Shown: piece by piece, positions 2,821 to 45,978 of the stretch | Layout of the letters: each line of letters opens with the position of its first letter | Numbering within the stretch: the stretch's first letter is position 1 | Source of the DNA: Daphnia carinata | Lineage: Eukaryota | Length of the DNA stretch: 64,000 nucleotides | Direction of reading: 5' to 3' | Assembly (NCBI RefSeq): GCF_022539665.2 | Contig: NC_081333.1 | Coordinates: forward strand, 1 to 64,000 | Made by a program: the position numbers and the translations under genes | The notes under the pieces: generated by a model | What the model was told of the DNA's origin: nothing | The model's input: only the letters and a program-made list of their open reading frames with translations | Databases searched by the model: none

Positions 2821-3182
2821 ATAACAAAATCACCGGAGAAAAAGCAGTGTAGTGTAACAAAGAACGACAGAAACTAACGCACGAAGAAAAAGAGACGCAA
2901 GAACCCCTATAAGAAAAGACAATGACTTAAAAAGGAAAATAGAAAGTTCAAAATGTAACGGTATATTCATCAATTCGCCCCACGGCGAAATAGAAGACGG
3001 AACACATTAAAATAGAAGAAACTACCTGTTTTGAAATTAAGAAGAGGGGAACAAGAATTTATGAAAAACTCTGCAAAAGAAGACTTTTCAAAAAACTAAC
3101 CTCTTCCCAGTGTTTCAACGACATAATTCAGACAAAGTTCTACAAAGAAAAGTGTCATCACAAGTCAACCTTTACCCTAAAA

Positions 3183-4424
3183 ATGGAAAACAACAACATC
3201 ACTCAGGATAACGCAATGGACGTAACCATCATCCCACAAGAAGAAAAAGAATACGAATTAATATACATTAGTGATACTGAAAGTGAGAATAGCCAGCAGG
3301 AGTACAAAGAAAAGGAAAGTGCTAAAAATGCAGATGTGAACAAGCAGATAGTGAAAAATGTAGAATGGGACGGAATCAAAACCGAGAAAAACGATTTTTC
3401 CGAACTAGAGAGAAAAAGGAAAGACATCAGTGAATCAAGTGACGACGACACCGAGGAGGTAAATGCCTATAGTGAAATGGAACCCGATCTGGATAGTACC
3501 TACAGTACTGAATTTATATTGGAAAATAACAGTGACAACGGTTTCCAATATGACCCACCCCACGGTACCGAATTGGAAAATGTTAGTGACACCGACCTCC
3601 AATGCGAACCGCCCAAAAAACGGAGCAGACCGAATAACCAACAAAGGGAAACAGAAACATGCAAGAACTGTCGGATGAAGACAATAGCACCCCTTTCAAC
3701 AGAACAAGCAGAGAAGATTCAACTGCACCGACAGGCTACTATTGACTTGGAAGACGGAAAACTTTGTCTATCAATGATGGAAGCTACACTACCAACTATA
3801 AGAAGATGCATCCAAAAAAGATTAGAATCGCTAGGATGTTGGCCACGACAAAAAATGGCCATATTCCTTAATAAAAGATACGAGGAAGGACGTACCCTGC
3901 TCCACACCAGTATACAAAAAGTAAGGTACGACATAACTGATGCTCTACTTGCCTATGGGGCAAACCCCGAGATAATGTATCGAGGCAGCACAATTGGACA
4001 CATGGCAGCGGAAAATAACGACTTATTCCTGGTAAGGATACTAAAACACCACAACTGCGAGTTCACAAATCGCAATAAAGACGGAGAAACCCCGCTAATG
4101 ACAGCAATATCACACGAACATGAGGAATGCGCACGCCTAATTTCGACACCAACAAACATCAAAATAGCAACCAGCAAGGGCAGAACCATCTTGCATTACC
4201 TCGCCAGATATGGACTCGAAGACTTGGCTACACAAATCTGTACAAAAAGAATAATTGACGTCAACCAGCAAGACGAAACGGGCACAACTGCCTTACACGA
4301 AGCAGTGAAATATAAACGACTGGACATGATCGAATTACTGCTTCTACATGGAGCAGATAAAAAGATAAAAGACAACCGTGGACATACGGCTGTAGCAAAT
4401 AATAACAGCACAAACATACAATAA
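3183..4424 (+). CDS. Ankyrin-repeat protein (~5 repeats) with acidic N-terminus and basic NLS-like motif, inside the retroelement
   Basis: Intronless 413-aa ORF with motifs GRTLLH, GSTIGH, GETPLM, GRTILH and GTTALHEAV...LLLLHGAD; PPKKRSR motif. The frame stays open upstream to 2994 without an ATG. Confidence 0.85.
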   Translation: MENNNITQDNAMDVTIIPQEEKEYELIYISDTESENSQQEYKEKESAKNADVNKQIVKNVEWDGIKTEKNDFSELERKRKDISESSDDDTEEVNAYSEMEPDLDSTYSTEFILENNSDNGFQYDPPHGTELENVSDTDLQCEPPKKRSRPNNQQRETETCKNCRMKTIAPLSTEQAEKIQLHRQATIDLEDGKLCLSMMEATLPTIRRCIQKRLESLGCWPRQKMAIFLNKRYEEGRTLLHTSIQKVRYDITDALLAYGANPEIMYRGSTIGHMAAENNDLFLVRILKHHNCEFTNRNKDGETPLMTAISHEHEECARLISTPTNIKIATSKGRTILHYLARYGLEDLATQICTKRIIDVNQQDETGTTALHEAVKYKRLDMIELLLLHGADKKIKDNRGHTAVANNNSTNIQ

Positions 4425-10800: not shown

Positions 10801-10902
10801 GCTGTTTGAATGTAGATCATGAAACTGATTCTATAACACTATATTCACATTGAATACACGTATATTTGATGCTGTTTGAATGTAGATATTGAAACTCACT
10901 GT
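4838..10902. repeat. 70-bp satellite array, left block (~87 monomers)
   Basis: Tandem GTATATTTGATGCTGTTTGAATGTAGATATTGAAACTCACTGTATCACACTATATTCACATTGAATACAC, with a variant carrying ...TCATGAAACTGATTCTATAAC... Confidence 0.98.
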
Positions 10903-11249
10903 TGTTAAGAATATCAGCCACGTCACAACGCATCGCCCACCAGATGGCACTGAATGCAATAGAGAAGCTGCCGTTCTCTACACAGCCTTCATGGATGCTG
11001 TTAAACACCTCCCCTGTCTACTTAATCATCGTCTGCTGCGCCGTCATCACGCTCTGTCTGACGGCTGCCCCTTTATCTCTCAAGTGATTTATTTCTCTAG
11101 AACTAACGCTGAGTTCACTTTCTCAATACTCACATGGTAAATATCATCATATTGTATGTACATTGATGCAGATATGAGATTGTTAGATATTTCATGTACC
11201 TGTGCAAAGAATACAGAAGCCTCGCTCTCATATCCTTGTGTATCTAACA
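10903..11249 (+). repeat. Copia 5' LTR (347 bp)
   Basis: TGTTAAGAAT...ATCTAACA; matches 15806-16158 apart from a 6-bp indel (AATACT). Confidence 0.97.
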
Positions 11250-11263
11250 GGTTATGGGCCCAG
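11250..11263 (+). promoter_or_regulatory. Primer-binding site GGTTATGGGCCCAG (Drosophila copia-type, complementary to the internal half of tRNA-iMet)
   Basis: Lies immediately after the 5' LTR; sequence matches the known half-tRNAiMet PBS of copia. Confidence 0.9.
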
Positions 11264-11287
11264 TACCTTCAACCAGTTATACTCAAG

Positions 11288-14200
11288 ATGAATTCTATGC
11301 GAGATGTCAACCATATTGCCAAATTTAATGGGCAAAATTTCCCACTATGGAAACTTGGGCTCTGGATCCTACTCCAACAACACGAGCTGGTCAAAGTTGT
11401 AACTGGAGAGGAAACCGTCCCTGTTGAGGTACATTGTAACACAATTACACATTCCAACAGATGATCTTATTGTTTCCAATCGATTTGTAGACAACATCAG
11501 ATGGAACTGTTACTAATGCTGCTGCTATATCAGAATGGCATACCAAAGATACACTTGCCCGTGGATATCTAATATCCACTATTGAGAGCCAACAACAGAG
11601 ATCTCTGATCAATTGTAACACAGCCAACGAGATGTGGGTTCGTCTATCGGCTCAATACCTCAGGAATGCTGTCGAGAATCGTTACGTCCTACAAGCAAGA
11701 TTTTTCGAATACCGCTACAACCCCGACCATGATATTATGGCACACATCACAGAAATAGAAACAATGGCCACTCAACTCACAGACATCGGAGCAGAAATCG
11801 ATAGTATTTCTATTATAACCAAAATAATCTGTACGTTGCCACCCAGCTATCGGAGTTTCATTACGGCTTGGGACAGCGTCCCATTTACAGATAGAACAAT
11901 GGCCTTACTTACATCTCGGCTACTAAAAGAGGAAGAAATGGCCAAACGATGGAGCACCGGTCGTCCGGACGCCCAAGATGCTGCTTTCTTCGCACATCAC
12001 TTCCCATCTCACTCACAAGTTCCCAACTCCTCATATGTAACACGTGATCGTGAACGTGGAAGGCGTGGCAGTTCGGGCAACCGTTCTCATAGCAGACAAC
12101 AACTTTACAGATTCTGCACTTATCGTCGCTGCAACATCGCTGGACACACACTTGAAATTTGTCGAAAAAGAATCAGAGACGAACGAGAAGCATTAAGAAA
12201 CAAGAATAACTTCACTGCTACCCCTGCCGTTACAAACCAAGAAGAAGGAATAGTAAAGCACCACGAACAGCATCTCGAAGATGAGGCGTATCTATCTTCT
12301 TCATGTTTCACTGAACGAAGTGTTAAAGATTGGTTTGCAGATTCAGGATGCACACAGCATATGACCGACCAACGCTCCCTTTTCTGCAATTTCACTCCAA
12401 TCTTATCCGACACGTGGACTGTTAATGGAATTGGCTCTTCCCGTCTGCTTGTACGGGGATATGGAAATATTGAATTCATCGTAACGACTGGTGACACACA
12501 ACGAGTAATCAACATTGCCAAAGTCCTCTATGTACCACGTCTAGGTACCAATCTCATTTCTATTGCTGCAGTTACCGACGTAGGTCTGTCGGTCCACTTT
12601 GTTGAAACCAAAGTAACTTTTGAGAAAAATTTAGCCATCATCATGATGATAGGCGAACGAATCGGGAAGAGCCTCTATCATCTCTCAATAGTTCCAAAGC
12701 TATCAGATAATCAGCCCCTGAAGGAGTCAGCCTGTTTAGCAACTCCGTCACCAAACTCGATCACCATATGGCATCAAAGGCTGGCGCACGTAAGCTACAA
12801 AACTATTTTTAATATGGCAACAAAACAACTGGTCGACGGTCTTCATCTACCGAAAAACACCACCCCTCCAACTCAACCGTGCATAGGATGCATTTCTGGT
12901 AAAATGCAGCGTTCACCATTCCCAGTTGGACGGAGCAGAGCAAATGAAGTTGGACAACTGGTCCATTCCGATGTATGTGGCCCCATGCACATATCCACAC
13001 CGGGAGGGGCAAAGTTTTTTGTGCTGTTCACCGATGACTTCAGCGGGTGGCGAGCCGTTTACTTCCTAAAACAAAAGTCCGAGGTAGCCGAATCTTTCAA
13101 AAGCTTTGTGAGCGTTCTTCGTAGTGAAACAGGACGCCTCGTACACACACTGAGAGTGGATAACGGTGGCGAATTCATGAGTCATTCATTCAAAACCTGG
13201 CTATCAGACAAAGCCATCAGGATGGAATCCTCAGCACCCTATTCACCGGAGCAAAATGGAGTCTCGGAAAGAGCTAACCGCACGATCATGGAAGGTGGGC
13301 GCTCTCTAATTCACGCCAAACATCTACCATTGGAACTGTGGGGAGAAGCCATTGCCTGTACTGTATATGTTCTTAATCGTGTCAGCAATAGTACGTCTTC
13401 AACAACACCTTACCAAGCTTGGCATGGGGAAAAACCTAACATCTCTCATCTACGTATCTTTGGATCGCTTGCCTTTATTCACATTCCAAAAGTAGAAAGA
13501 CGCAAATTAGAATCCAAAAGCTTCCAGTGCTTCTTCGTTGGATACTCACTCACCCAAAAGGCATATCGATTTTGGGATCCAGTCGGTAGAAAAATTAAAA
13601 TAAGTCGGGACGTCATCTTTGATGAAAACTCTAACACTTTATCTCGTTTTTCTCCTCAAATAGAAACTAACAATTTCGATGAGCTTTTTTCAAGACCGGT
13701 CAACCTTACAACACCAGCCCAAGAGAAAATCAACCCTGTCATCATGATACCCCAGGTTTTAGAAGAAACCAAGAACGAAACAGAATCATCATCTATTACC
13801 CCGGAACTCTCAGGCAGTCCAGCAGCTAATCTACAGCACACCTCACACCAAGTGGAAGCCGAGTCCGACCCTTCTTCATCAAGCATAGAGACAATACTTA
13901 CCGAAACCAACACCCACAATGATGTACCCTCATCTATACGCTGCTCCCCATACCCTTTACGAGTGCGTGAGCCAAAACGCCAATGGAAATCTCTGCAGTC
14001 AACTGTCACTCAACGCACAGAAATTTACGAGCCAACTACCTATTCTGATGCGATGGAATGTGATGATGCACTTCAGTGGAAAGTGGCTATCCAAGATGAG
14101 TATGATTCGCTGATACGCAACGGGACATGGTATCTCTCTCCACTCCCACAGAATCGAAAAGCCATAAAATCACGCTGGGTGTTTAAAGTGAAACCGGGCA

Positions 14201-15582
14201 CCGTAGACTCCCCTCCACGTTACAAAGCAAGATTAGTTGCCAAGGGGTTCTCACAACGACCCGGGATCGACTTTGAAGAAACATTCTCGCCAGTTGTAAA
14301 ACATGATACACTTCGAATAATTTTATCTCTTGTCGCCAGTCTTGATTTAGATATGTCGCAGCTTGATGTCAAGACGGCGTTTCTATATGGGGAACTGGAC
14401 GAAGAAATTTATCTTCAACAACCCGAAGGATATATTTCCCCCGGTCAGGAAAACTATGTTTGTCGGCTACAGAAATGCCTGTACGGTCTTAAACAGGCCT
14501 CAAGAATATGGAATCGTCACTTTGATAGATTTTTGAAGAAATTTGGCTTACAATCTAGTAACGCAGACCCATGCCTTTACTCTCGCCGCAACAACAATGA
14601 AATCCTCTTTGTTGTCATCTGGGTTGACGATGGTCTTGTCATCAGCAACAATCGAAATCTGGTAACTGAAATAATTGATTACCTAAGCAAGATTTTTGAA
14701 ATGCGGTGCACTCCCGCTAACTACTTTGTCGGTATGTCCATCAATCGAAGCCGAAAAGACAAAACCTTATTCATTTCACAACCAGATTACATTAAAAAAA
14801 TCCTTAATCGTTTCCACATGACAGACTGCCATCCTAAAAATATTCCAGCACAACCCGGATACCACCTGACTCAAAATGTTGGAGAGGAGTTTCTAAGCAA
14901 CGTGCCATACAGGGAAGCGGTCGGGAGTCTAATTTACCTGGCGATAGTATCTCGCCCAGACATCTCATTTGCTGTTGGCCAAGTGGCACAATTTTCAGAA
15001 AACCCACAACAACATCACTGGGCAGCAGTTCGGAGAATATTTGCATATCTCAAAGGTACACAGGAACATGGAATTCGCTTCGGCCCGACAAACGACCGCT
15101 TAATTGGATACACTGATTCGGATTTCGCTGGGGATACGGCAAGCCGAAGATCAACCACGGCATTTATTTTTCTTCTTAACGGCGGACCAGTAGCATGGAC
15201 TAGCCGTCGCCAATCTTGCGTTGCATTGTCCTCCACGGAATCTGAATTTGTAGCTGCCTGTGAGGCCACGAAGGAAGCAGTCTGGCTCAAACGCCTGATG
15301 GAAGACATATCACCTGGATGGATTGAAACTATCCCCTTAATGTGTGACAATCAGTCAGCCATCCAACTCATCAAAAATCCGGTTTTCCACCAAAGGACCA
15401 AACACATTGATGTAAAATATTACTTCATTCGCGATCGACAAGAAACCGGCGACATTAACATCTCGTATATATCCACAAACGATCAGCTTGCGGATCCCTT
15501 GACTAAGAATCTACCTAATCCCCGTTTTTCGGCACTACGGGAATTAATGGGAATTGTACCTGTCCCACCAAAACTAAACTAA
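11288..15582 (+). CDS. Copia Gag-Pol polyprotein; exon 1 11288-11428, intron 11429-11490, exon 2 11491-15582
   Basis: Exon 1 MNSMRDVNHIAKFNGQNFPLWK... is a typical copia Gag N-terminus and joins in phase 0 to TTSDG...EMW. Motifs: protease WFADSGCTQHM, WHQRLAH, integrase VHSDVCGP/DNGGEF/QNGVSER, RT WVDDGL, RNase H YTDSDFAG. Confidence 0.92.
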
Positions 15583-15796
15583 TTTCTTTTTTATTATTTT
15601 AGATGGTGGTAGAATCCATATAACAGAAGTACAACTATATATGCTATCACCATCACTGAAGCAGTATCAATTCAATTCAAAGAATCAAGAAGAAGATCTA
15701 CTCACCTCACTATTATTTGCATTATTTCTTTCTTCTCTGTTGTCTTTTTCAACTTTGAGTTTGTGTTCTTGTGTTCTCTTCCATTCTTACATGTCT

Positions 15797-15805
15797 GAGA
15801 GGGAG
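15797..15805 (+). promoter_or_regulatory. Polypurine tract GAGAGGGAG
   Basis: Directly precedes the TG of the 3' LTR. Confidence 0.9.
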
Positions 15806-16158
15806 TGTTAAGAATATCAGCCACGTCACAACGCATCGCCCACCAGATGGCACTGAATGCAATAGAGAAGCTGCCGTTCTCTACACAGCCTTCATGGATG
15901 CTGTTAAACACCTCCCCTGTCTACTTAATCATCGTCTGCTGCGCCGTCATCACGCTCTGTCTGACGGCTGCCCCTTTATCTCTCAAGTGATTTATTTCTC
16001 TAGAACTAACGCTGAGTTCACTTTCTCAATACTCACATGGTAAATATCAAATACTTCATATTGTATGTACATTGATGCAGATATGAGATTGTTAGATATT
16101 TCATGTACCTGTGCAAAGAATACAGAAGCCTCGCTCTCATATCCTTGTGTATCTAACA
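15806..16158 (+). repeat. Copia 3' LTR (353 bp)
   Basis: Direct repeat of 10903-11249, followed by the ACTGT TSD. Confidence 0.97.
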
Positions 16159-19100
16159 ACTGTATCACACTATATTCACATTGAATACACGTATATTTGA
16201 TGCTGTTTGAATGTAGATATTAAAACTCACTGTATCACACTATATTCACATTGAATACACGTATATTTGATGCTGTTTGAATGTAGATATTGAAAATCAC
16301 TGTATCACACTATATTCACATTGAATACACGTATATTTGATTCTGTTTGAATGTAGATATTGAAACTCACTGTATCACACTATATTCACATTGAATACAC
16401 GTATATTTGATGCTGTTTGAATGTAGATAATGAAACTGATTCTATAACACTATATTCTCATTGAATACACGTATATTTGATGCTGTTTGAATGTAGATCA
16501 TAAACTGATTCTATAACACTATATTCACATTGAATACACGTATATTTGATGCTGTTTGAATGTAGATCATGAAACTGATTCTATAACACTATATTCACAT
16601 TAAATACACGTATATTTGATGCTGTTTGAATGTAGATATTGAAACTCACTGTATCACACTATATTCACATTGAATACACGTATATTTGATGCTGTTTGAA
16701 TGTAGATATTGAAACTCACTGTATCACACTATATTCACATTGAATACACGTATATTTGATGCTGTTTGAATGTAGATCATGAAACTGATTCTATAACACT
16801 ATATTCACATTAAATACACGTATATTTGATAATGTTTGAATGTAGATATTGAAACTCACTGTATCACACTATATTCACATTGAATACACGTATATTTGAT
16901 GCTGTTTGAATGTAGATATTGAAACTCACTGTATCACACTATATTCACATTGAATACACGTATATTTGATGCTGTTTGAATGTAGATATTGAAACTCACT
17001 GTATCACACTATATTCACTTTGAATACACGTATATTTGATGCTGTTTGAATGTAGATCATGAAATTGATTCTATAACACTATATTCACATTGAATACACG
17101 TATATTTGATGCTGTTTGAATGTAGATCATGAAACTGATTCTATATCACTATATTCACATTGAATACACGTATATTTGATGCTGTTTGAATGTAGATATT
17201 GAAACTCACTGTATCACACTATATTCACATTGAATACACGTATATTTGATGCTGTTTGAATGTAGATAATGAAACTGCTTCTATAACACTATATTCACAT
17301 TGAATACACGTATATTTGATGCTGTTTGAATATAGATCATGAAACTGATTCTATAACACTATATTCACATTGAATACACGTATATTTGATGCTGTTTGAA
17401 TGTAGATCATGAAACTGATTCTATAACACTATATTCACATTGAATACACGTATATTTGATGCTGTTTGAATGTAGATATTGAAACTGATTCTATAACACT
17501 ATATTCACATTGAATACACGTATATTTGATGCTGTTTGAATGTAGATATTGAAACTGATTCTATAACACTATATTCACATTGAATACACGTATATTTGAT
17601 GCTGTTTGAATGTAGATATTGAAACTCACTGTATCACACTATATTCACATTGAATACACGTATATTTGATGCTGTTTGAATGTAGATCATGAAACTGATT
17701 CTATAACACTATATTCACATTGAATACACGTATATTTGATGCTGTTTGAATGTAGATATTGAAACTCACTGTATCACACTATATTCACATTGAATACACG
17801 TATATTTGATGCTGTTTGAATGTAGATATTGAAACTCATTGTATCACACTATATTCACATTGAATACACGTATATTTGATGCTGTTTGAATGTAGATATT
17901 GAAACTGATTGTATCACACTATATTCACATTGAATACACGTATATTTGATGCTGTTTGAATGTAGATATGAAACTGATTCTATAACACTATATTCACATT
18001 GAATACACGTATATTTGATGCTGTTTGAATGTAGATATTGAAACTCATTGTATCACACTATATTCACATTGAATACACGTATATTTGATGCTGTTTGAAT
18101 GTAGATATTGAAACTGATTGTATCACACTATATTCACATTGAATACACGTATATTTGATGCTGTTTGAATGTAGATATTGACTACACTATATTCACTTGA
18201 ATACACGTATATTTGATGCTGTTTGAATGTAGATATTGAAACTGATTCTATAACACTATATTCACATTGAATACACGTATATTTGATGCTGTTTGAATGT
18301 AGATATTGAAACTGATTCTATAACACTATATTCACATTGAATACACGTATATTTGATGCTGTTTGAATGTAGATATTGAAACTGATTCTATAACACTATA
18401 TTCACATTGAATACACGTATATTTGATGCTGTTTGAATGTAGATATTGAAACTGATTCTATAACACTATATTCACATTGAATACACGTATATTTGATGCT
18501 GTTTGAATGTAGATATTGAAACTGATTCTATAACACTATATTCACATTGAATACACGTATATTTGATGCTGTTTGAATGTAGATCATGAAACTGATTCTA
18601 TAACACTATATTCACATTGAATACACGTATATTTGATGCTGTTTGAATGTAGATATTGAAACTGATTGTATAACACTATATTCACATTGAATACACGTAT
18701 ATTTGATGCTGTTTGAATGTAGATATTGAAACTGATTCTATAACACTATATTCACATTGAATACACGTATATTTGATGCTGTTTGAATGTAGATATTGAA
18801 ACTGATTCTATAACACTATATTCACATTGAATACACGTATATTTGATGCTGTTTGAATGTAGATATTGAAACTGATTCTATAACACTATATTCACATTGA
18901 ATACACGTATATTTGATGCTGTTTGAATGTAGATATTGAAACTGATTCTATAACACTATATTCACATTGAATACACGTATATTTGATGCTGTTTGAATGT
19001 AGATATTGAAACTGATTCTATAACACTATATTCACATTGAATACACGTATATTTGATGCTGTTTGAATGTAGATATTGAAACTGATTCTATAACACTATA

Positions 19101-26970: not shown

Positions 26971-29313
26971 TCCCACCGTTCTATCTCTAACCGTTCAAAA
27001 GTTAGCATTTTAAAATTTTTCAAAGCCATCTAGCGGTCGCATTTCAAGTTATAATTAAATCAAACACATCTCAATCGACGTAACTTTTCATTCTGCGTCG
27101 AATGGATTCATTCCCACCGGTCTATCTCTAACCGTTCAAAAGTTAGTATTTTTAAATTTTTCAAAGCCATCTAGCGGTCGCATTTCAAGTTATAATTAAA
27201 TCAAACACATCTCAATCGGCGTAACTTTTCATTTTGCGTCGAATGGATTCATTCCCAGCGTTCTAGCACACACGGTTCAAAAGTTAGCATTTTAAAATTT
27301 TTCAAAGCCATCTAGCGGTCGCATTTCAAGTTATAATTAAATCAAACACATCTCAATCGACGTAACTTTTCATTTTGCGTCGAATGGATTCATTCCCAGC
27401 GTTCTATCTCTACCGTTCAAAAGTTAGCATTTTAAAATTTTTCAAAGCCATCTAGCGGTCGCATTTCAAGTTATAATTAAATCAAACACATCTCAATCGA
27501 CGTAACTTTTCATTCTGCGTCGAATGGATTCATTTTCATCGTTCTATCTCTAACCGTTCAAAAGTTAGCATTTTTAAAATTTTCAAAGCCATCTAGCGGT
27601 CGCATTTCAAGTTATAATTAAATCAAACACATCTCAATCGACGTAACTTTTCATTCTGCGTCGAATGGATTCATTTTCATCGTTCTATCTCTAACCGTTC
27701 AAAAGTTAGCATTTTTAAATTTTTCAAAGCCATCTAGCGGTCGCATTTCAAGTTATAATTAAATCAAACACATCTCAATCGACGTAACTTTTCATTCTGC
27801 GTCGAATGGATTCATTTTCACCGTTCTATCTCTAATCGTTCAAAAGTTAGCATTTTTAAATTTTTCAAAGCCATCTAGCGGTCGCATTTCAAGTTATAAT
27901 TAAATCAAACACATCTCAATCAACGTAACTTTTCATTCTGCGTCGAATGGATTCCTTTTCACCGTTCTATCTCTAACCGTTCAAAAAATAGCATTTTTAA
28001 ATTTTTCAAAGCCATCTAGCGGTCGCATTTCAAGTTATAATTAAATCAAACAAATCTCAATCGACGTAACTTTTCATTCTGCGTCGAATGGATTCATTTT
28101 CACCGTTCTATCTCTAACCGTTCAAAAGTTAGCATTTTAAAAATTTTAAAAGCCATCTAGCGGTCGCATTTCAAGTTATAATTAAATCAAACACATCTCA
28201 ATCGACGTAACTTTTCATTCTGCGTCGAATGGATTCATTTTCACCGTTCTATCTCTAACCGTTCAAAAGTTAGCATTTTTAAATTTTTCAAAGCCATCTA
28301 GCGGTCGCATTTCAAGTTATAATTAAATCAAAAACATCTCAATCGACGTAACTTTTCATTCTGCGTCGAATGGATTCATTTTCACCGTTCTATCTCTGAC
28401 CGTTCAAAAGTTAGCATTTTAAAATTTTTCAAAGCCATCTAGCGGTCGCATTTCAAGTTATAATTAAATCAAACACATCTCAATCGACGTAACTTTTCAT
28501 TCTGCGTCGAATGGATTCATTTTCACCGTTCTATCTCTAACCGTTCAAAAGTTAGCATTTTTAAATTTTTCAAAGCCATCTAGCGGTCGCATTTCAAGTT
28601 ATAATTAAATCAAACACATCTCAATCGACGTAACTTTTCATTTTGCGTCGAATGGATTCATTCCCAGCGTTCTATCTCTAACCGTTCAAAAGTTAGCATT
28701 TTTAAATTTTTCAAAGCCATCTAGCGGTCGCATTTCAAGTTATAATTAAATCAAACACATCTCAATCGACGTAACTTTTCATTCTGCGTCGAATGGATTC
28801 ATTCCCAGCGTTCTATCTCTAACTGTTCAAAAGTTAGCATTTTTAAATTTTTCAAAGCCATCTAGCGGTCGCATTTCAAGTTATAATTAAATCAAACACA
28901 TCTCAATCGACGAACTTTTCATTCTGCGTCGAATGGATTCATTTTCACCGTTCTATCTCTAACCGTTCAAAAGTTAGCATTTTTAAATTTTTCAAAGCCA
29001 TCTAGCGGTCGCATTTCAAGTTATAATTAAATCAAACACATCTCAATCGACGTATCTTTTCATTCTGCGTCGAATGGATTCATTCCCAGCGTTCTAGCAT
29101 ATAACCGTTCAAAAGTTAGCATTTTTAAATTTTTCAAAGCCATCTAGCGGTCGCATTTAAAGTTATAATTAAATCAAACACATCTCAATCGACGTAACTT
29201 TTCATTCTGCGTCGAATGGATTCATTTTCACCGTTCTATCTCTAACCGTTAAAAAGTTAGCATTTTTAAATTTTTCAAACCCATCTAGCAGTCGCATTTC
29301 AAGTTATAATTAA
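26971..29313. repeat. 141-bp satellite (~16.5 monomers)
   Basis: TCCCACC recurs at 26971 and 27112. Monomer contains CTATCTCTAACCGTTCAAAAGTTAGC, GCCATCTAGCGG and the hairpin TCGACG...CGTCGA. Confidence 0.97.
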
Positions 29314-31670
29314 AAAATTATATCAATAAAACTAGATAACTGTATACGATTTAGATGCTAAATTTAACAAGAATCACGAATACGAAATTACTTTTTATGT
29401 TGACTTCATGGTTTTTGAGTTATTTTAAATATAAAAGTAAGTACGATAGAAATTTAAGGCCCGACAAAACAATAAACCCGATTTTTAACTAAAAAATTAT
29501 TATCAATAAAACTAGATAACTACATATGATTTACATGCTAAATTTAACAACAATCAACAACAATCACGAAAATGAAAATTATTTTTGCAATGGTACCAAT
29601 CCATAAATGAAAACCTTGCAATTTATGATTGACATAGTTTCTATGTAGACTTTATGGTTTTTGAGTTATTTTAAATATAAAAGTAGGTATGATAGAAATT
29701 TAAGGCCCGATTCCCGACGCTGTGATGTTCGTTTTCTGTGTTGTCAGAATAAGTTTTCCTATGTTAAGCATCCGTATTTTTAAAGAAAGTGATGATGGTC
29801 CGAATCGCAGAGGAATCGTTTAATTTTCGTTTTTCTTCGTATTTCCCGAAAGAAACTAACAAATCCAATGAGAAACGAACAGCACACAGGGTGTTGTCGA
29901 AGAGGAACACGTAGTCAAGATTCTGAGAAAAAATTTGAAATTCTAGACAATGCTCTGCAGCAATGTGTTTGTTGTAAGATTTATTTTCTATATTGGCATA
30001 ATAGAATAATTAGAAAATCATGATTTTTTTTTCTTCCTTTTAGGTTTTTGACTTCGTTTAATGTTGTGGCTGAATGGACAATGAGAGATTGAATCAACAA
30101 CATAACAAGCGGGCAGCTCATGGTCATGGTCAAACTCATTAAGGCATAAAGGTATCATTTAATTGGGAAATATTTGTTCACGTCAATACAAGTATTTGTA
30201 TAGGTTTTCTTCATAGGGGCTTTAGCCACCAAACATTTTTTCTTCTTTATGGTTTGTTAGATAAGGGTGGAGGCGGCTTTAACAATTTAGATCTAGCAGC
30301 TATTAGACTGGTGGTGTTGGCCCAGTGAATCTTATTGTCTTCAAGCTGGGTGAAAAAACAATGAGTATTTAGTTATCAAAATTACCTGAGGCATGTGCAA
30401 ATATTCAAATAATTCTTTGTTGAAGTTCAGTTAGTTTCGTGCAACATCCTCACAAAAATGCAACAAGACTTAACAAATAGAGCATATAGACGCAGTGTCG
30501 AACTGTACCAGTGAGTACCAGAGTAATGTGACAAACATTCATGATGGTGATTAATCTTCACACAGCTAACATTTAGTTGGTACTATTATGTGTTTTATAA
30601 ATTTAGTTATAATTTTATTCAGCTTGTTATTTAGTGGAATATAATTTATTTCAGTTTTTCTGATGCAGTTTGGAAGCCACTTGGAGTAAGCCTTTCGTCA
30701 GTTACTCACAAAAAAAGATTGGCAAATCTAGTCCTGGAGATCACTTTTTTTGTCAAGGAAATACTGGAAATTGGTATTGAAAAGGTCATTAACAGACAAT
30801 TTTTGTATTTTATCAGTTTATTCCTATATTTAACATGGTTGTTTAGAAATGCTATTGGAGTCTAAAAGCACTTGACAAAAAACCTTTTGATTGTTCTCGT
30901 ATTAGATGGAAATTACTTGTGCAATGGTACCAATCCATAAATGAAAACAATCTATTAGACAAAAATTTATGATTGACTGATCATAATCTGTGTAAATTTA
31001 TATATAATTCTAGGTATTCAACCATGGAATGACCAGCTCTCTGCAGAGTGAAAATCTACTTGACAGCGTTAAACCTGTTAAGTACCTTTTACAAAAAATT
31101 CTGAGAATTGCAAAAGTTATGTGAACAAATTTTGTATTGGAGAAATTCTAGGTAAAATGAAAGCCATTTCACAATACAGCTGAATAGCTATGAAACACAA
31201 CCAATCCAGGAACTGAGTGTGTTGAACAACCAAACTTATCTTGGAGAGCTGCAGAAAGAGAATGGAACATTACCCTGCCAAACACCTGCTTCCAAATGGT
31301 AGTTTTAATTATTTGTTTTTACAAGATATATTCAGTCAATTCTTCGAAAACTGTTCTTTTTCGCAGGTCAATGGCAGGGGTCTTATTCACTGTCTGATGA
31401 ATTTAAGTTTAAACAAGATATTGCTTTTGATTACTTCTGCTGGTAACTTTTATATTCCTAGTTAGGATATGGCTTTCCTCAAAAAGGGTTTAAACTAACA
31501 TCTAACTTTTTTTTCTTCTTCTCAAAAGAGCTGCTGAGGAAGTTAGCTAGAGTGACGTAGATGTGTCATCACAGCAGAATAACTGTAAAAAGCAAGTTCT
31601 TCAGCAAAATGAGTGCCTTGCAGTATTTACCACTATTGAACTTTGAGCTGATGATACCTGGTAAACCTGC

Positions 31671-32827
31671 AATTTGTTTTTATGTAGACTTCATGGTTTT
31701 TGAATTATTTCAAAAATAAAAGTAGGTACGATAGAAATTTAAGGCCCGAAAAAACAATAAGCCCGACTTTTAACTAAAAAATTATTATCAATAAAAATAG
31801 ATAACTATATATGATTTAGATGCTAAATTGAACAACAATCCCGAATATGAAATTAGTTTTTATGTAGATTTTATGGTTTTTGAGTTATTTTAAATATAAA
31901 AGTAGGTACGATAGAAATTCAAGGCCCGACAAAACATTAAACCCGACTTTTAACTAAAAAATTAATATCAATAAAACTGGATAACTATAAATGATTTAGA
32001 TGCTAAATTTAACAAGAATCACGAATATGAAATTAGTTTTTATGTAGGCCTAATGGTTTGTGAGTTATTTTAAATTTAAAAGTAGGTACGATAGAAATTT
32101 AAGGCCCGAAAAACAATAAGCCCAACTTCTAACTAAAAAATTATTATCAATAAAACTAGATAACTATGTACGATTTAGATGCTAAATTTAACAAGAATCA
32201 CGAATATCAAATTAGTTTTTATGTAGACTTCATGGTTTTTGAGTTATTTTAAATATAAAAATAAGTACGATAGAAATTTAAGGCCCGACAAAACAATAAA
32301 CCTGATTTTTAACTAAAAAATTAATATCAATAAAACTAGATAACTATAAATGATTTAGATGCTAAATTTAACAAGAATCACGAATATGAAATTACTATTT
32401 ATGTAGGCCTAATGGTTTGTGAGTTATTTTAAATTTAAAAGTAGGTACGATAGAAATTTAAGGCCCGAAAAACAATAAGCCCAACTTTTAACTAAAAAAT
32501 TATTATCAATAAAACTAGATAACTATATACGATTTAGATGCTAAATTTAACAAGAATCACGAATATCAAATTAGTTTTTATGTAGACTTCATGGTTTTTG
32601 AGTTATTTTAAATATAAAAGTAAGTACGATAGAAATTTAAGGCCCGACAAAACAATAAACCCGATTTTTAACTAAAAAATTATTATCAATAAAACTAGAT
32701 AACTACATATGATTTACATGCTAAATTTAACAACAATCACGAAAATGAAATTAGTTTCTATGTAGACTTTATGGTTTTTGAGTTATTTTAAATATAAAAG
32801 TAGGTATGATAGAAATTTAAGGCCCGA
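31671..32827. repeat. 180-bp tandem repeat block (~6.4 copies)
   Basis: AAGGCCCGA...TAACTAAAAAATT at 31741, 31921 and 32101; ~2 more copies at 29314-29710. Confidence 0.95.
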
Positions 32828-34782: not shown

Positions 34783-35936
34783 AATTTGTTTTTATGTAGA
34801 CTTCATGGTTTTTGAATTATTTCAAAAATAAAAGTAGGTACGATAGAAATTTAAGGCCCGAAAAAACAATAAGCCCGACTTTTAACTAAAAAATTATTAT
34901 CAATAAAAATAGATAACTATATATGATTTAGATGCTAAATTGAACAACAATCCCGAATATGAAATTAGTTTTTATGTAGATTTTATGGTTTTTGAGTTAT
35001 TTTAAATATAAAAGTAGGTACGATAGAAATTCAAGGCCCGACAAAACATTAAACCCGACTTTTAACTAAAAAATTAATATCAATAAAACTGGATAACTAT
35101 AAATGATTTAGATGCTAAATTTAACAAGAATCACGAATAAATTAGTTTTTATGTAGGCCTAATGGTTTGTGAGTTATTTTAAATTTAAAAGTAGGTACGA
35201 TAGAAATTTAAGGCCCGAAAAACAATAAGCCCAACTTCTAACTAAAAAATTATTATCAATAAAACTAGATAACTATGTACGATTTAGATGCTAAATTTAA
35301 CAAGAATCACGAATATCAAATTAGTTTTTATGTAGACTTCATGGTTTTTGAGTTATTTTAAATATAAAAATAAGTACGATAGAAATTTAAGGCCCGACAA
35401 AACAATAAACCTGATTTTTAACTAAAAAATTAATATCAATAAAACTAGATAACTATAAATGATTTAGATGCTAAATTTAACAAGAATCACGAATATGAAA
35501 TTACTATTTATGTAGGCCTAATGGTTTGTGAGTTATTTTAAATTTAAAAGTAGGTACGATAGAAATTTAAGGCCCGAAAAACAATAAGCCCAACTTTTAA
35601 CTAAAAAATTATTATCAATAAAACTAGATAACTATATACGATTTAGATGCTAAATTTAACAAGAATCACGAATATCAAATTAGTTTTTATGTAGACTTCA
35701 TGGTTTTTGAGTTATTTTAAATATAAAAGTAAGTACGATAGAAATTTAAGGCCCGACAAAACAATAAACCCGATTTTTAACTAAAAAATTATTATCAATA
35801 AAACTAGATAACTACATATGATTTACATGCTAAATTTAACAACAATCACGAAAATGAAATTAGTTTCTATGTAGACTTTATGGTTTTTGAGTTATTTTAA
35901 ATATAAAAGTAGGTATGATAGAAATTTAAGGCCCGA
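34783..35936. repeat. 180-bp tandem repeat block (~6.4 copies), duplicate of 31671-32827
   Basis: Same monomers in the same variant order. Confidence 0.95.
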
Positions 35937-37482: not shown

Positions 37483-40400
37483 AGAAACTATGTCGGTAAC
37501 CCTTTGTTCTGTGTTCTTGTGTTTTGTTGAAACTTTCCTATGTCATTTTCAAGTGAGATTTTTATTTGTTTTTAGGTAGCTGTACTGATGTGTAAAGAAT
37601 GGTGGTTGCAGGTCATCAGAGCCATTCTTTTATACAATACTGTTCCTTTTTTATTGCTTTAATTTTTTCATTTTAGCCACTGAATGTAGCTGGAACAGAA
37701 CATGTTGGAATTTTAGCATCAGGACATCTGGCTGGTTGGACAATTAAACATCCCTCTGTGTGGACATAAACGTGTCAAGTTTTTATCTGTAGATTATTTC
37801 TGGGATAATAACTTTGTCACCAACACCGTGACTTTGAAAACTAGCAGTTGAACAGTCTTTCAATTCGAAACAAAAAGGAGTCATGGTAATTTTATGTTTT
37901 GTATACATTTCTGTATAAACTATCATTTATCTAGATTACTCAAGTGGCATGACACTATATGGCTGGTATTGGAATAGATACTGTTGGTTGTATGCAGAAT
38001 ATCTTACTGAGAAGGGGATCTACTATTGAAGGAGTATCGTGTTTTACTACAGGCTGACCAGAAGCACAAACACATTGATTGAAAATTATTATCAATTTTA
38101 AGAATTGGTAAGTGAAATAATAGTAATTATACGAAGTTGTAATAATATTCTAATGATAAGCAATTACTATGGAATTATTGTTGGGAAAAGGTGACAAAAA
38201 ATAATAATTTATGTTATAAAAATTAACAGGGTAAAAACCATTTTCTATGGTATTTGTGGTAAAGTATATTATGTATTGCTATGAATACTTGTTATCCGAA
38301 CAAATTGAAAATAATTGTACAAATTTTTATCCACCTATGTTGAAGCTTTGTTAGCTATAGGTCCCTATATCGTATCTATATATGGTCCCTATAGCTTACC
38401 AAATTGAAAATAATTGTCCTACTGTTTATCTAACTTTGTCGAAGCTTTGTAATCCATAGGTCTCTTACTTTGCTTATCTTCCAGTGATCAGGACAATGTG
38501 GGTTAGTATAACATTAAACAATTTAAAATTTATTCAAAGTCAGAACAGTTGAAATTTCAAGTAGATTGACATGTGCAGGGAATACTTGTTAATGTTTTGC
38601 AGGTACAAGAATTACACATACATATTACAACTGTATTGATAAGATTTTCGATGCTTAATAATTTCTATTTACATTCAGAAGTAACAGGTTATTAATATGA
38701 CTTAATGTACATGACTACATGATGAATACCAGCAGTGATGAAACCTAAGAGTCGCAACGAACATATAGTATGGTACTATAAATGTTTTAAATAATTAGTG
38801 ATACTTAACTGTCAATATCTCATTTGATGCAGTTTGAAAGACGGTCCGAGTAAACACTACAGCATCTACTCACACAAGGACTGCAAAATCGTCGTAAATT
38901 CAACTTAGCTGACAGGCGAATCGATCGACGACGGTGTTATAGTTGAGGTACAGTTGTGGAGGTAAGACTATGTACGAAAGTGAATATTTTGCGTCTTCTA
39001 CCGCCTTAAATACTCGATGACACGTGTCACATTATTGCTTTCCCGGAAGTAGAGTGTAGGGTAGAGAGCCCTAATTCTGAAGGTCGATAGGTTGAAGGGC
39101 AAATCTTTATTTCCAGGTGAGCCCGAGGTTATAGCCATTCCCCATCGATTGACCCTAGGTTACTTTTACTTTTTTTTTTGTTTCCAAGTGCGTAAAACAG
39201 ATGAAGAACCTCGGGCATTCACTAAAAGGAGGGGGCGAGAAAAAAAGAATCTAGAAGCTCAGTAGCTCGTTCACCTGCACGCGATGCACTAGTGTAGATT
39301 TGTTGCTGGCACTCCTCGTCTAGTGATACTTAGAACTTTCGCACGTGTACCCAGTTTTCGCAATTTGTAGATTCATCAATTACGCACGGCATCAGCACCT
39401 GGTTTTGTTTAGTTGGGTAGTACAATAAGTCTAGATGAAATAGATCATCATAGATTAAGTTAAGGATAAGTAGGTCTAAACTGAAGTTAACAGTAAGGGT
39501 ACTTAAGCGTATAACTTAAGTAAGGCGTAAGCGTAGTCCACCTCAGTTCGTTACCTTTGCACAACACTATCTTAGCCATTTTCTTTCACTGTTCTATGCA
39601 ATTGTGTACCGTAGTCGTCGTTCGTAAACCATTTTTCCACGAACATCGTACATGTCGACTTTTTCACACAATTTTCACATGAACCGCCAATCCAAACAAC
39701 CTCCTGATCATTAACTAACGATTAATAATCGATTTCTTTTTCCAGGAAATTTTTATCAAATGTAACTGTAATTTGTGTATCTGATCCTGTTAGAATTAAG
39801 ATAACACTGATTGTTGATCAAATATTCAAAAATTTTGTTTGTTTTTCTTTTTCTTTTGTACAATCAGGAGGGTAATCTTTCGGGGCTGAAGAGGACACTG
39901 GACAATGAGGATCGCCGCCGCAGCCACTCTAATATAGCCCAGGATCCTGAGGTGTTTAGTTAAAAATTCAGTATGTAACCATTTATTTTATTTTTTTTAT
40001 AAATAGATCTGGAAGGCCACATCTCCACCGAAGAGAACCGTTGGACAACGAGGGTTATCGGCAGTATCTTCTCCCAAAATTCCAATTCCAAGGTATTTAA
40101 AATATTTAAGTGCCTTACCATGTTCTATGTATTAATCTGTGTATAGGAGGGCTGGCAACACTACCGAGAAGGATTACTCGACGTCGGGGATCGCCGCCGA
40201 AGTCGCCAAGGATTGACAGGTATTACTTAAATAATTGTGATAAGTGTTTAATCGTGTTTTTTTTGTATTTAGGATGGTCTACATCACTAACGAGGTGGGC
40301 CACTAGACAACGAGGTTCGGTGTCGGAACCACCATGAATCGTCGCCCAAAATTGTGAAGTATTTAATCGAAAGCCTTAGGTTGAGAACTATGATTTTATT

Positions 40401-42001
40401 TTGTTTTTATGTATTTAGGAACGCTTCACCGCCATCGAAGAGGATGCTGGACATCGAGGATCGCCCCTAGAGTAAGAAGGTCGTCGCAATGGATGTTTCA
40501 GGTATGTTTTACACGTTGAAGTGTCTAACCATGTTTTATTTTATGTATTTAGGATGGTCCACATCTCCACCGAAGACGGTCGGCGAGGTTCGCCGACGGA
40601 GCCACCAGGATGGAGGCCCAAAATTGTCAAGTATATTGTTTAAAATTTTACCATTTTTTCACCATTAATTGATTGTTTTTTATGTGTATAGGAGGGCGTC
40701 ATCATCGCCGAAGAGGACCACTGGACAACGCGGTTCGCCGTCGGATTTACCAGGATCATCGCCCTAAATTTTCAAGTATTTAATTTAAAGTTTTAAGTTT
40801 TGCACTACTATTTTATTTAGTTTTTATGTATTTAGGAGGGCTTCACCACCATCGAAGAAGACCGTTTGGACTATGACGGTCACTGCCAAGATCTTAACTC
40901 AATATTGCAAGGTATTTGAAATTTTTAAGTGGCTTATCATGTTCTATGTATTTATCTGTGCCTAGGAGGGTTGGCAATACCACTGAGGAAGATTAGTGGA
41001 CATCGGGGATCGCCGCCGAAGTCGCCAAGGATTACCAGGTATTGCTTAATTAATTTAAAGGGTTTAATCGTGTTTTTTCTAATGTATTTAGAATGGTCCA
41101 CATCACCACTGAAGAGGGCCATTGGACAAAGAGGTATGCCATCGGAGCCACCAGAATTGTGGAGTATTCTATTGAACGTTTTAATTTCACGCTATGATTT
41201 TATTCTGTTTTTATGTACTTAGAAGGCCCCACCACCATCGAAGAGGATGCGGAAGGAACGAAGATCACCACTGGAGCAGCGAGATCGTCGCCATGGATGT
41301 TTCAGGTATTTGTTTTTCATGTGTAAATGTCTAACCATATTTTTTTAATGTATTTAGAAGGGTTCCGTCATCGCCGAAGAGGACCATTGGACGTCGTAGA
41401 TCGTCGTTGGAACAACTGGAATCGCTGCCTATCCTTGAGATTCACGCCCATTAGGTCGACGGAAAAACGATGGTACGGTTGAGTATTGCCTAATTGGCAT
41501 TCGCCTACTTTATACCGTATTATTATTTGTGTATTTTCTAATGTGTTCCCCTTATCCTTTATTCCTTACCGTTAATTTCCCTTAAGCATTACGGCTTATT
41601 CTTTTAATTTTCATTGATCACGCAATTCACTACACCTGTACCCTACGGTTCATTCACGGTTTGTTTGCTTTTTTGCACCGGGTTGGGATTAGTGTATTAG
41701 GTGATGTAGTCCAGCTTACATTGGTTTCGTGCTTCAAGTATTTAGTTGGTGCAGGTTTACTAACACTAACTGCTTCTAAAACAAATAGAACAAAATTATA
41801 AATTTATTTTATCTCTGCATACTACTTTTGAGTTGTCTAGTGGTTTGAATGATACATGAATACAAAAATAATTAATCGCGTGCAATCGGGTTGCTAACCC
41901 TGATTTGATAACCTGATAAAAACGTGATGGGGCAGTAACCCTTCTAACCTGTCCCACAGACGAGAATGAACAACCCGATAAACAAGAAACCGGTTCAAGC
42001 G
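37483..42001 (+). repeat. Left outer arm of a diverged inverted duplication (partner ~49080-53427)
   Basis: Reverse-complement matches: 37480-37700 vs 53230-53430; 38550-38880 vs 52360-52690; 38895-39870 vs 50990-52055; 41900-42001 vs 49080-49190. Confidence 0.9.
39869..41455 (+). other. Repetitive multi-exon gene or pseudogene: ~12 units of GC-rich exon plus T-rich intron (~135-bp period), Arg/Ser/Pro/Gly-rich product
   Basis: Recurrent TATTTAG|GA acceptors (40273, 40419, 40553, 40692, 40835, 40966, 41091, 41223, 41357) and GTATT donors. Exons share CCATCGAAGAGG..CTGGACAACGAGG.TCGCCG. Confidence 0.65.
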
Positions 42002-42654
42002 ATTAAACGGAAATTATGTCATTGTCTATATTTAATAATCATCTCTTTAGCACTAGTAGGTAAGGAAAATTTAATTTGCATTTTGTAATTTTTTTGCTAG
42101 TGTTTGACTGAGTGAACTTGCAGTTGTATAAAGTTATTCAAGATAACTGAAATGGTAGCCCATAAATCAGAAGAATTTTATCTGACATCTTTCTTGCGTG
42201 AACCTGTTAAGAAAAAAACCTTGTTATATCAAAGGGCACCCAATGAAGAAATTGGCTTCATTAATGAATCAAATAGTTAACATTTGCCATTTGTATGTTA
42301 GTGTTAAAATTTGACTGCATTTTCTTTTCTTCAGACTCATTGATTCTAACAAACAGCCTGGTTGCAAACTTTTACCCATTTTGTTGCCATGAATGTATCT
42401 CTGATCCAGTCTTCAACACCCACAAATGCCAAGGTACACAGATATTTCTAAGCTGAGACTGTTAATCTGAAAAAAACAACTTGCAAACCAGCTTGTTCCC
42501 TTTATAAAAAACTTGCTTTAGTCAGGTAAACTTATTTGGATTGCAAGCAATTCAAGTAAATCATTAATTATCTTTAGATTCAAGTGTTATATTGCCTTCT
42601 ATTGGTTCCCTTTGTGGGAAACATGTGTTGTGTGTGAGTAAATGCAACCCTAAC

Positions 42655-43225
42655 AGTCTTGGAGATCACTTTTTTTTGTCAAGGAAATACAGGAAATTGG
42701 TATTGAAAAGGTCATTAACAGAAAGTTTTTGTATTTTAGCAGTTTATTCCTACATTTAACATCGTTGTTTAGAAATGCCATGGAATCAAAAAGCACTTGG
42801 CAAACAACAGTTTGATTGTTCTCGTACCTGTATTAGATGGAAATTACTTGTGCAATGGTACCAACCCATTCATGAAAACAATGTATTAGACAAAAATTTA
42901 TGATTGACTGGTCATAATCTGTGTAAATTTAATATATAATTCTTACAATTCAAGGTATTCAACCATGGAATGTTGACCTCTTTTCATTGAGCTTATCTTG
43001 GAGAGCTGCAGAAAAAGAATGGAACATTACCCTGCCAAACACCTGCTTCCTAATGGTAGTTTTAATTATTTGTTGTCACAAGATATATTCAGTCAATTCT
43101 TCGTAAACTGTTCTTTCTCACAGGTCAATGGCAGGGGGGGTCTTATTCACTGTCTGAAGAATTTAAGTTTAAACAAGATATTGCTTTTGATTACTTCTGC
43201 TGGTAACTTTTATATTGCTAGTTAA
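42655..43225 (+). repeat. Diverged copy of part of the 3.1-kb unit
   Basis: Matches ~30730-31465 with an internal deletion; ORF 42998-43225 is near-identical to 31241-31465. Confidence 0.9.
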
Positions 43226-44554: not shown

Positions 44555-44625
44555 CCATCAATGGCTCAGTGGTAGAGTACTGACTTCGTATGTCAAAGGT
44601 CCTTGGTTCGACTCCGAGGATAAGC
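44555..44625 (+). pseudogene. tRNA-like module (Thr-like CGT anticodon position), acceptor stem unpaired
   Basis: A box TGGCTCAGTGG, D arm, CTGAC-TTCGTAT-GTCAA, and T arm CTTGG-TTCGACT-CCGAG. Confidence 0.75.
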
Positions 44626-44699
44626 GTGGTGTAAATTAATGTGCAGAAAAGTCTTATATTATTTGAAATACAATATTCATATAACTATCATTACAATCT

Positions 44700-44770
44700 C
44701 CACCAACTTGGAGTTGAACGCTCATCGCTTCAGTTGCAACACTGCTCCTCTACCACTGAGCTACCATTGA
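44700..44770 (-). pseudogene. tRNA-like module
   Basis: Minus strand reads TAGCTCAGTGGTAGAG...GTTCAACTCC (A and B boxes at tRNA spacing). Confidence 0.65.
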
Positions 44771-45259
44771 CACATTACATCTCAATGACTATTCCAAGCC
44801 ACTAAATTAACTACCTCCAAACTAGCATACGTAAAATGGCCCTAAAAATCGAAATGATGTTAAAATGTAAAGTACTTGCGTCTGAATTCTTAGAGCTGTG
44901 GTTCAAATCCTAGACAAACCAAAAAGAATAATGCAATTCGGAATCAATGGTTCGATTCAATGGTAGCAGTTGCCCTTACTCTAGTGTGAGATATGTGATT
45001 CAACTCCCACAGCAACAACCTGAACGGTAAATGAACTTTAGAGGAAGATCAAGGTGGAACATAACTGAAAGGTACGGTAACCTTGATGGTAAATGACCTT
45101 CGAGATCTAAAAAAGTTTAATGGTAAAGTAAGTAACCTTCAGAGGAAAAGTAAAGGACGAACGTAGACGCTGAAGGTTAGGTGTTTGCCCTTGAAAGTTT
45201 TGAAGGTCGAATATTTGACCTTGAAAATTTTGAAGGTCGAATATTCGACCTTGAGATAT

Positions 45260-45886: not shown

Positions 45887-45978
45887 TGCTTGTAATCAAC
45901 ATTTCGATTTTTAGTGCCATTTTACATATGCTACCTTGGCGATAGTTAATTTAGTGTATTGGAGGAGTAATAATAATG

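What the first reader, a model, noticed from the sequence alone, without database searches (positions are those of the whole stretch)
11288..11632. Copia element whose Gag-Pol needs removal of a host-like 62-bp intron
Seen: Gag codons 1-47 end at GAG|GTACAT and the frame resumes after TTTGTAG|ACA (11490). The intron is 62 nt, so unspliced RNA terminates at 11464. The LTRs differ by only one indel, so this intron-containing form transposed recently. Known: copia and EVADE splicing makes Gag-only mRNA while unspliced RNA encodes Gag-Pol; here the logic is reversed. Inference: spliced RNA is the only message and unspliced RNA is the packaged genome, so splicing separates mRNA from genome, perhaps with a packaging signal in the intron.
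Basis: partly seen in the sequence, partly recalled or inferred. Interest (0 to 1): 0.8.

Follow-up and report, generated by a model that had tools for sequence, protein, structure and literature searches.

The report
Water-flea retrotransposons keep a capsid intron
A young, intact jumping gene of a water flea, and dozens of related families, carry a short intron-like stretch near the start of the capsid gene that ends translation unless it is removed, so the RNA that makes the proteins and the RNA that is copied into new insertions are likely two different molecules.

Summary
An intact Ty1/copia element (LTRs without substitutions, 5-bp target duplication) has a 62-nt GT..AG gap after gag codon 47; unspliced RNA stops at 11464. 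It is no private lesion. Six of six related loci have a GT..AG gap at the same codon (57-73 nt, all three length classes mod 3, all ending the unspliced frame). Of 132 exon-1-like proteins, 60 break off exactly there with the valine that a phase-0 GT predicts. Exon 1 is under purifying selection and aligns with the solved fly copia capsid across the junction. Named relatives are Daphnia. The introns share a motif complementary to U2 snRNA beside the branch site. One set of Logan contigs lacks the intron precisely, in a decayed copy. No RNA run could be listed, so splicing of this copy and the packaging rule are inferred. The logic is partly known (Ogre, BARE1 RNA pools, HIV-2 leader intron, Penelope-like elements). 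An intron inside the capsid N-terminus that leaves unspliced RNA without any Gag was not found in 10 paper searches or among this scan's earlier findings. Verdict: new variant of a known kind.

The parts
10898..10902 (+). 5-bp target-site duplication ACTGT, left copy, within a unit of the 70-bp satellite
10903..11249 (+). 5' LTR (TG...CA), 347 nt
11250..11263 (+). primer-binding site, identical in all 7 elements; its reading as the half-tRNA-iMet type is recalled, not tested
11288..11428 (+). gag exon 1, codons 1-47: N-terminal part of the capsid protein
11420..11426 (+). end of exon 1, complementary to the mid-intron motif (possible hairpin arm; weak support)
11429..11490 (+). 62-nt phase-0 GT-AG intron (predicted), in-frame stop at 11462-11464
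11454..11468 (+). conserved mid-intron motif (core AACAGAT at 11456-11462) just 5' of the likely branch region; complementary to U2 snRNA next to its branch-recognition sequence
11491..15582 (+). exon 2: rest of gag with zinc knuckle, protease, integrase, RT and RNase H; 1363 codons without stop
15796..15805 (+). polypurine tract
15806..16158 (+). 3' LTR, 353 nt (6-nt insertion relative to the 5' LTR)
16159..16163 (+). target-site duplication ACTGT, right copy

Best explanation
This intact Ty1/copia retrotransposon belongs to a large group, Daphnia wherever a relative is named, whose capsid gene is interrupted after codon 47 or 48 by a short GT-AG segment that is very likely a spliceosomal intron; spliced RNA is predicted to be the source of Gag and Gag-Pol, and unspliced RNA, which stops after about 55-80 codons, is likely the RNA that is packaged and reverse-transcribed. 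Shown: the gap, its conservation, the stop, purifying selection on exon 1, and a recent insertion that kept the gap. Inferred: splicing is deliberately incomplete, the proteins act in trans on unspliced RNA, and the intron persists because spliced RNA is disfavoured as genome or because intron-less copies do poorly. The conserved mid-intron motif most likely pairs with U2 snRNA. In several elements the end of exon 1 could pair with the same motif and so damp splicing (speculative).
For: Same phase-0 GT..AG gap in 7 of 7 elements at DNA level: 62, 69, 73, 63, 57, 64, 68 nt; the three 3n gaps carry in-frame stops; unspliced products 53-81 aa. Exon 1 pN 0.02-0.30 against pS 0.43-0.83 over 21 pairs. 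Pfam gag profile runs across the junction in a joined natural protein (28-204, profile 4-168) and the solved fly copia capsid aligns across it (8s41, E 6e-6). Of 88 proteins listed from 10 clusters, 43 cover the start of exon 2 and 42 of these lack exon 1. Exon-1 profile: 248 hits, best 150 examined; of 132 usable rows 88 do not continue into exon 2 and 60 of them start their tail with V (tail positions 2-4: 1, 9, 8), 46 of the 60 after E. Of 8 joined forms looked up, 6 are named proteins of Daphnia genome annotations; where a partner with the same exon 1 exists, they join at the point where it turns into V. Five Logan proteins on 13 contigs lack the intron precisely at the junction predicted for L003 and L004. 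Conserved intron 7-mer: 0 of 150 shuffles as good; 9-12 of 12 pairs with U2 in 7 of 7, bulged A in register in 4 of 7 (U2 letters). LTRs without substitution plus target duplication.
Against: No reads were laid, so splicing of this family is not observed. The joined Daphnia proteins are probably gene predictions, which use the same GT-AG logic. The intron-less Logan set shows that removal happens, but if it is genomic DNA it also shows that spliced RNA can be copied. Intron-less relatives exist: 44 of the 150 rows continue into exon 2, and 27 of them fall in a separate 42-row group (SH-aLRT 87, 47 columns, quick tree), so the intron is not needed by copia as such. The exon-intron hairpin fails the whole-context folding test (Fisher p 0.16; cognate pairs 770 of 5040). 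No packaging signal was identified. A long RNA with a stop at codon 59 would be a likely nonsense-mediated-decay target (established knowledge), which the model must get round. L003, the only other locus with two LTRs, has 9 substitutions and no target duplication, so only one young insertion was verified.
Confidence: 0.75

Rival explanations
1. The intron is real, but spliced and unspliced RNA are packaged alike. It survives because intron-less copies are poorly expressed, poorly exported or silenced, or because splicing is rare, not because it marks the genome RNA.
For: A precisely intron-less, decayed sequence exists in Logan contigs; the conserved intron motif reads as a splicing signal; no structure special to unspliced RNA passed the folding test.
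Against: An intron placed in yeast Ty was lost from new copies (PMC12786077, passage), yet here 42 of 43 junction-covering proteins lack exon 1 and about 60 clusters at 50% identity show the break.
Confidence: 0.3
2. Unspliced RNA is also a message: ribosomes skip or finish the short first frame and start at an in-frame AUG in exon 2, giving an N-terminally shortened Gag-Pol, so the two pools are not strictly separate.
For: An in-frame AUG lies at exon-2 codon 48 or 49 in 5 of 7 elements and earlier in 2.
Against: No conserved AUG near the acceptor; the product would lack about 94 residues of the capsid domain that align with the solved capsid; exon 1 is conserved as protein.
Confidence: 0.15
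3. The segment is a recoding site (frameshift, read-through or ribosomal hop), not an intron.
For: Copia-type elements use recoding signals (title of a reference seen; otherwise recalled).
Against: The gaps would need three different shifts and, in the 3n cases, read-through of one to three stops; GT and AG are invariant in 7 of 7; natural sequences lack exactly the GT..AG stretch.
Confidence: 0.02
4. A chance insertion or assembly error in one dead copy.
For: None.
Against: Same position in 6 of 6 independent loci with diverged gap sequences; intact 1363-codon frame; LTRs without substitution.
Confidence: 0.01

Closest known systems
[quoted passage not shown]
   Same: A retained intron breaks the polyprotein frame; it is spliced from only part of the transcripts so that the whole polyprotein can be made.
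   Different: In Ogre unspliced RNA still encodes Gag-protease. Here the intron lies after codon 47 of the capsid, so unspliced RNA encodes no usable Gag; copia, animal host, about 60 nt.
Drosophila copia, barley BARE1, Arabidopsis EVD (PMC5580714 and PMC3735527, passages)
   Same: Ty1/copia elements that use the host spliceosome; BARE also keeps separate RNA pools for translation and packaging.
   Different: Their unspliced RNA encodes Gag-Pol and splicing yields Gag only; BARE separates its pools by promoter and capping. Here splicing is predicted to be needed for any Gag.
HIV-2 5'-UTR intron (PMC3315320, passages)
   Same: A small intron removed from full-length RNA gives a better Gag message that is excluded from particles.
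   Different: The intron is in the leader, unspliced RNA still makes Gag, and the splice is reported as dispensable.
Penelope-like elements (PMC8557442, passages)
   Same: Retroelements that keep introns after retrotransposition.
   Different: Not LTR or capsid elements; the described intron is in the 5' UTR; the paper calls the significance of retention unknown.
CoDpu clade of Daphnia copia elements (PMC3587641, passages; PMC2996953, passages)
   Same: Probably the group these elements belong to (named relatives are D. pulex, D. magna, D. carinata, D. sinensis).
   Different: Neither paper's main text holds 'intron' or 'splic' (0 hits each); clade membership was not tested by a tree with reference elements.

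Membership tests
Ty1/copia LTR retrotransposon | Two TG...CA LTRs, short target duplication, PBS and PPT | tested here: met
Ty1/copia LTR retrotransposon | Order gag-protease-integrase-RT-RNase H, copia-type gag and RT, no env | tested here: met
   Pfam PF14223, PF22936, PF13976, PF00665, PF07727 in this order; RNase H judged from motifs only; no further long ORF before the PPT
U2-type spliceosomal intron | GT...AG ends, A+T-rich, size like host introns | tested here: met
   7 of 7 GT..YAG, 57-73 nt, A+T 0.62-0.76; host introns 64, 70, 68 nt, inferred
U2-type spliceosomal intron | Branch region able to pair with U2 at a fitting distance from the acceptor | tested here: met
   9-12 of 12 pairs; bulge position 16-27 nt from the acceptor; bulged base is A in 4 of 7. 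U2 letters from papers on yeast and on amphibian oocytes; Daphnia U2 not checked
U2-type spliceosomal intron | Removal restores a conserved protein; position conserved in relatives | tested here: met
U2-type spliceosomal intron | Excision seen in RNA | tested here: inconclusive
   Precise loss in five Logan proteins whose contigs may be RNA or DNA; no reads could be laid
copia/BARE1/EVD Gag-only splicing | Unspliced RNA encodes Gag-Pol; splicing at the end of gag or in protease gives Gag only | tested here: not met
   Unspliced frame ends after 53-81 codons; no conserved strong donor in the first 1260 nt of exon 2 and no conserved acceptor near the pol end in 5 loci each, crude scan
Ogre-type intron | Intron between gag-protease and RT in a Ty3/gypsy element | tested here: not met
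   Copia order; intron inside the capsid
Ogre-type intron | Partial splicing needed for the full polyprotein | not testable with these tools
   Predicted from the frame; the share of spliced RNA is unknown
CoDpu clade | Groups with D. pulex copia in an RT/RH tree | not tested
   Only the names of relatives were seen

The most novel reading that the evidence does not exclude
A whole radiation of Daphnia copia elements splits message from genome completely with one ancient intron in the capsid gene: only spliced RNA makes protein, only unspliced RNA is packaged, so every particle is filled in trans, and the ratio is set by a switch in which the end of exon 1 mimics U2 snRNA and competes for a conserved branch-side motif.
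Probability: 0.3. Interest if true: 0.87.

Novelty: new variant of a known kind. Interest (0 to 1): 0.72.

Why it matters
How a retroelement divides one transcript between translation and packaging is a standing question (stated as such in PMC3735527). Here the two fates would carry a 62-nt sequence tag, so they can be told apart by plain sequencing of polysomes, particles and cDNA. An intron kept through reverse transcription in dozens of diverged families, beside intron-less sister families in the same hosts, is also a natural experiment on why introns persist against RT-driven loss. In practice, ORF-based annotation of these elements cuts off the first 47 capsid residues or calls intact copies broken.

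Tried and rejected
No RNA holder was listed; this is no evidence either way, and no reads were laid. Viral contigs gave no relative (the three pattern hits showed no copia frame). Genome contigs gave none by protein and one unrelated copia by pattern (L010). A second protein search with the joined N-terminus found only two exon-2 forms among 25 candidates. Hairpin burying the donor: in the alignment consensus, covariation 21 of 500 shuffles, duplex test 144 of 5040, but not significant when folded in context and absent from the window's own best fold with longer flanks; kept only as speculation. 'Weak donor' idea: 6 of 7 donors lack G at +5, but so do 2 of 3 host introns, so it was dropped. 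The AG at the LTR/PBS border as an acceptor: the intron-less Logan proteins read through that border, so it is not used there. The AG 32 nt into the intron leads to a stop. A second intron making Gag-only RNA: none found by a crude scan. The Atlas only confirmed copia Gag. In one search the L006 donor was set one codon early; it was corrected.

Full report
Observation. The window holds a 5256-nt Ty1/copia element at 10903-16158, inserted in a 70-bp satellite array. Its LTRs differ by one 6-nt indel and no substitution; it has a 5-bp target duplication, a primer-binding site and a polypurine tract. From the ATG at 11288 the frame gives 47 codons, then GT at 11429, and stops at 11462-11464 after 58 residues. 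From 11491, behind TTTGTAG, a frame of 1363 codons carries gag, protease, integrase and RT with intact catalytic motifs.

Host. Named relatives are proteins of Daphnia magna, D. pulex, D. carinata and D. sinensis; the window's species was not determined. Three introns inferred from frame continuity in a MYND-finger gene of the window are 64, 70 and 68 nt, so 62 nt is host-like on this small sample.

The gap is conserved in DNA. One metagenome scan gave 87 pattern matches and 6 confirmed loci, 56-85% identical in gag. All 6 have exon 1, then a GT..YAG gap at the same codon boundary, then exon 2: 69, 73, 63, 57, 64 and 68 nt (for L004 a second in-frame AG at 63 nt is possible). With the window the lengths fall in all three classes modulo 3, the three 3n gaps hold in-frame stops, and the unspliced frame ends after 53-81 codons in 7 of 7. 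Gap sequences are 50-70% alike. This rules out a private frameshift and makes recoding very unlikely.

Exon 1 is capsid. Over 21 pairs it has pN 0.02-0.30 against pS 0.43-0.83, like exon 2. In natural joined proteins the Pfam copia gag profile crosses the junction, and the solved Drosophila copia capsid (8s41, 8vvw) aligns with residues 9-151, the junction falling in a short gapped stretch. An internal start would lose about 94 residues in 5 of 7 elements.

The gap is clade-wide. Ten clusters found with the exon-2 part of gag hold 189 members; 88 were listed, 43 cover the start of exon 2, and only one of them (P0029, not from a contig) carries exon 1. A profile of the seven exon-1 peptides found 248 representatives at 50% identity; the best 150 were examined. 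Of these, 96 end within 60 residues of the junction, 44 continue into exon 2, 4 have an insert before exon 2 and 6 are other. After dropping 18 rows with partial or weak matches, 60 of 88 non-continuing rows start their tail with valine, as a phase-0 GT demands, against 1, 9 and 8 at the next three positions and 9 of 44 continuing rows (Fisher p 3e-7); 46 of the 60 follow a glutamate. A few of the 60 look like exon 2 missed by the profile (P0170, P0138). Identical exon-1 peptides occur in both forms (P0237/P0238, P0169/P0162). Of 8 joined forms looked up, 6 are named proteins of Daphnia genome annotations, one is from Logan contigs and one from ENA contigs. A quick tree on only 47 columns clusters the label (28 changes against 43.6 shuffled, 0 of 500) and sets apart a 42-row group with 27 continuing rows, the ENA form among them, and one V row. 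The simplest reading is one old gain in a Daphnia radiation beside intron-less sister families; the tree is too weak to show a single origin.

Evidence of removal. Five Logan proteins on 13 contigs of 1.2-2.5 kb join exon 1 to exon 2 exactly where L003 and L004 predict. Logan calls appear blind to splicing, since another one reads an intron tail (P0035). This sequence is decayed: four of the five end early in gag and the fifth ends at the start of integrase. It is either spliced RNA of a broken copy or a DNA copy made from spliced RNA; both imply that the intron is spliced, and the second implies that exclusion of spliced RNA is leaky. No reads could be laid.

A conserved intron motif. The seven introns share a 7-mer better than 150 of 150 shuffles, and the window and L003 share a 14-nt word although their synonymous sites are largely diverged. 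The motif also shows through the translated tails of five more close clusters. Its core AACAGAT is complementary to U2 snRNA directly 3' of the branch-recognition sequence (U2 letters from PMC4712673 and PMC2064619): 9-12 of 12 pairs in all seven, with a bulged A in register in four, 16-27 nt from the acceptor. The three host introns lack it (p 0.56-0.93). The test was designed after seeing the motif, and the seven are kin. The end of exon 1 is complementary to the same motif in most elements: a 6-pair helix is the alignment consensus, L001 changes both sides at two pairs, with an amino-acid change, and L004 keeps a G-U (21 of 500; 144 of 5040). Folded in context the helix is not significant (Fisher p 0.16, 770 of 5040). 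I therefore read the motif as an extended branch-site signal, with competition by the exon end as an open possibility, and find no evidence of a packaging signal.

How it most likely works. A new insertion with matching LTRs and a target duplication kept the intron, so unspliced RNA was the template. That RNA cannot make Gag by its first frame, so the proteins most likely come from spliced RNA of the same or sister copies and act in trans. An intron placed in yeast Ty was lost from new copies (PMC12786077, passage), so long retention needs either discrimination against spliced RNA or low fitness of intron-less copies; my data cannot separate these (0.75 for the overall model, 0.3 for the no-discrimination variant, which overlaps it). 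How the Gag excess over Pol is made is open: no conserved second intron was found by a crude scan.

What is known. Ogre has an intron between gag-protease and RT that is spliced from part of the transcripts to allow the polyprotein, and Bianca copia elements have two ORFs about 172 bp apart (PMC6317226, passages). Fly copia, BARE1 and EVD splice to make Gag only, and BARE keeps separate pools (PMC5580714, PMC3735527, passages). HIV-2 has a leader intron whose spliced form is translated better and not packaged (PMC3315320, passages). Penelope-like elements retain introns (PMC8557442, passages). Three papers on Daphnia or crustacean LTR elements have no hit for 'intron' or 'splic' in the main text (PMC2996953, PMC3587641, PMC5381639), and a fourth has one in a reference title (PMC12241861). 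PMC2911113 (passages) had nothing to the point. Ten searches were run, seven of them on introns in LTR elements or on Daphnia elements; none showed an intron in the capsid N-terminus of a copia element. This scan's earlier findings hold no look-alike; one search listed five notes on other spliced or intron-like retroelement features in fungi.

Verdict. Interest 0.72.

Noticed in passing
window 11134-11143 and the LTRs of L002-L006, L010: A donor-like motif GGTAA(A/C/T)T lies 112-360 nt before the primer-binding site in 7 of 8 LTRs, also in the unrelated copia L010; 0 of 5000 shuffles reach 5 (motif picked after inspection). It may be a U1 site or the donor of a leader intron; the LTR indel of the window lies just behind it.
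   Followed up: partly
window 11215-11223 and L001-L006: Invariant AGAAGCCTC shortly before the LTR end in 7 of 7 elements; function unknown.
   Followed up: no
proteins P0106, P0246, P0252, P0254, P0256 (Logan): Precisely intron-less but decayed relative of L003 and L004 on 13 contigs; RNA or processed DNA copy not known.
   Followed up: partly
window 4837-26870: About 22-kb region of a 70-bp satellite, split by the element; further satellites of 141 bp (26974-29314) and 180/359 bp (31671-32827, 34783-35936).
   Followed up: no
window 37500-53400: Large diverged inverted duplication (arms 76-90% complementary), with two weak tRNA-like hits facing each other at 44562-44618 and 46161-46217 around a 7-bp tandem repeat.
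   Followed up: no
window 55726-59100 (-) and 2994-4424 (+): A MYND-finger gene with short introns, and an ankyrin-repeat ORF.
   Followed up: partly
L003 4361-9523 and 650-1873: Full-length relative with an intact 1354-codon exon 2, LTRs with 9 substitutions and no target duplication (possible assembly chimera); a DDE_Tnp_4 transposase ORF lies upstream.
   Followed up: partly
L010 (contig in a Burkholderiales MAG): A eukaryotic copia element of another lineage, with the same primer-binding site and a 674-codon open gag-like frame, sits in a bacterial genome bin: likely contamination.
   Followed up: partly
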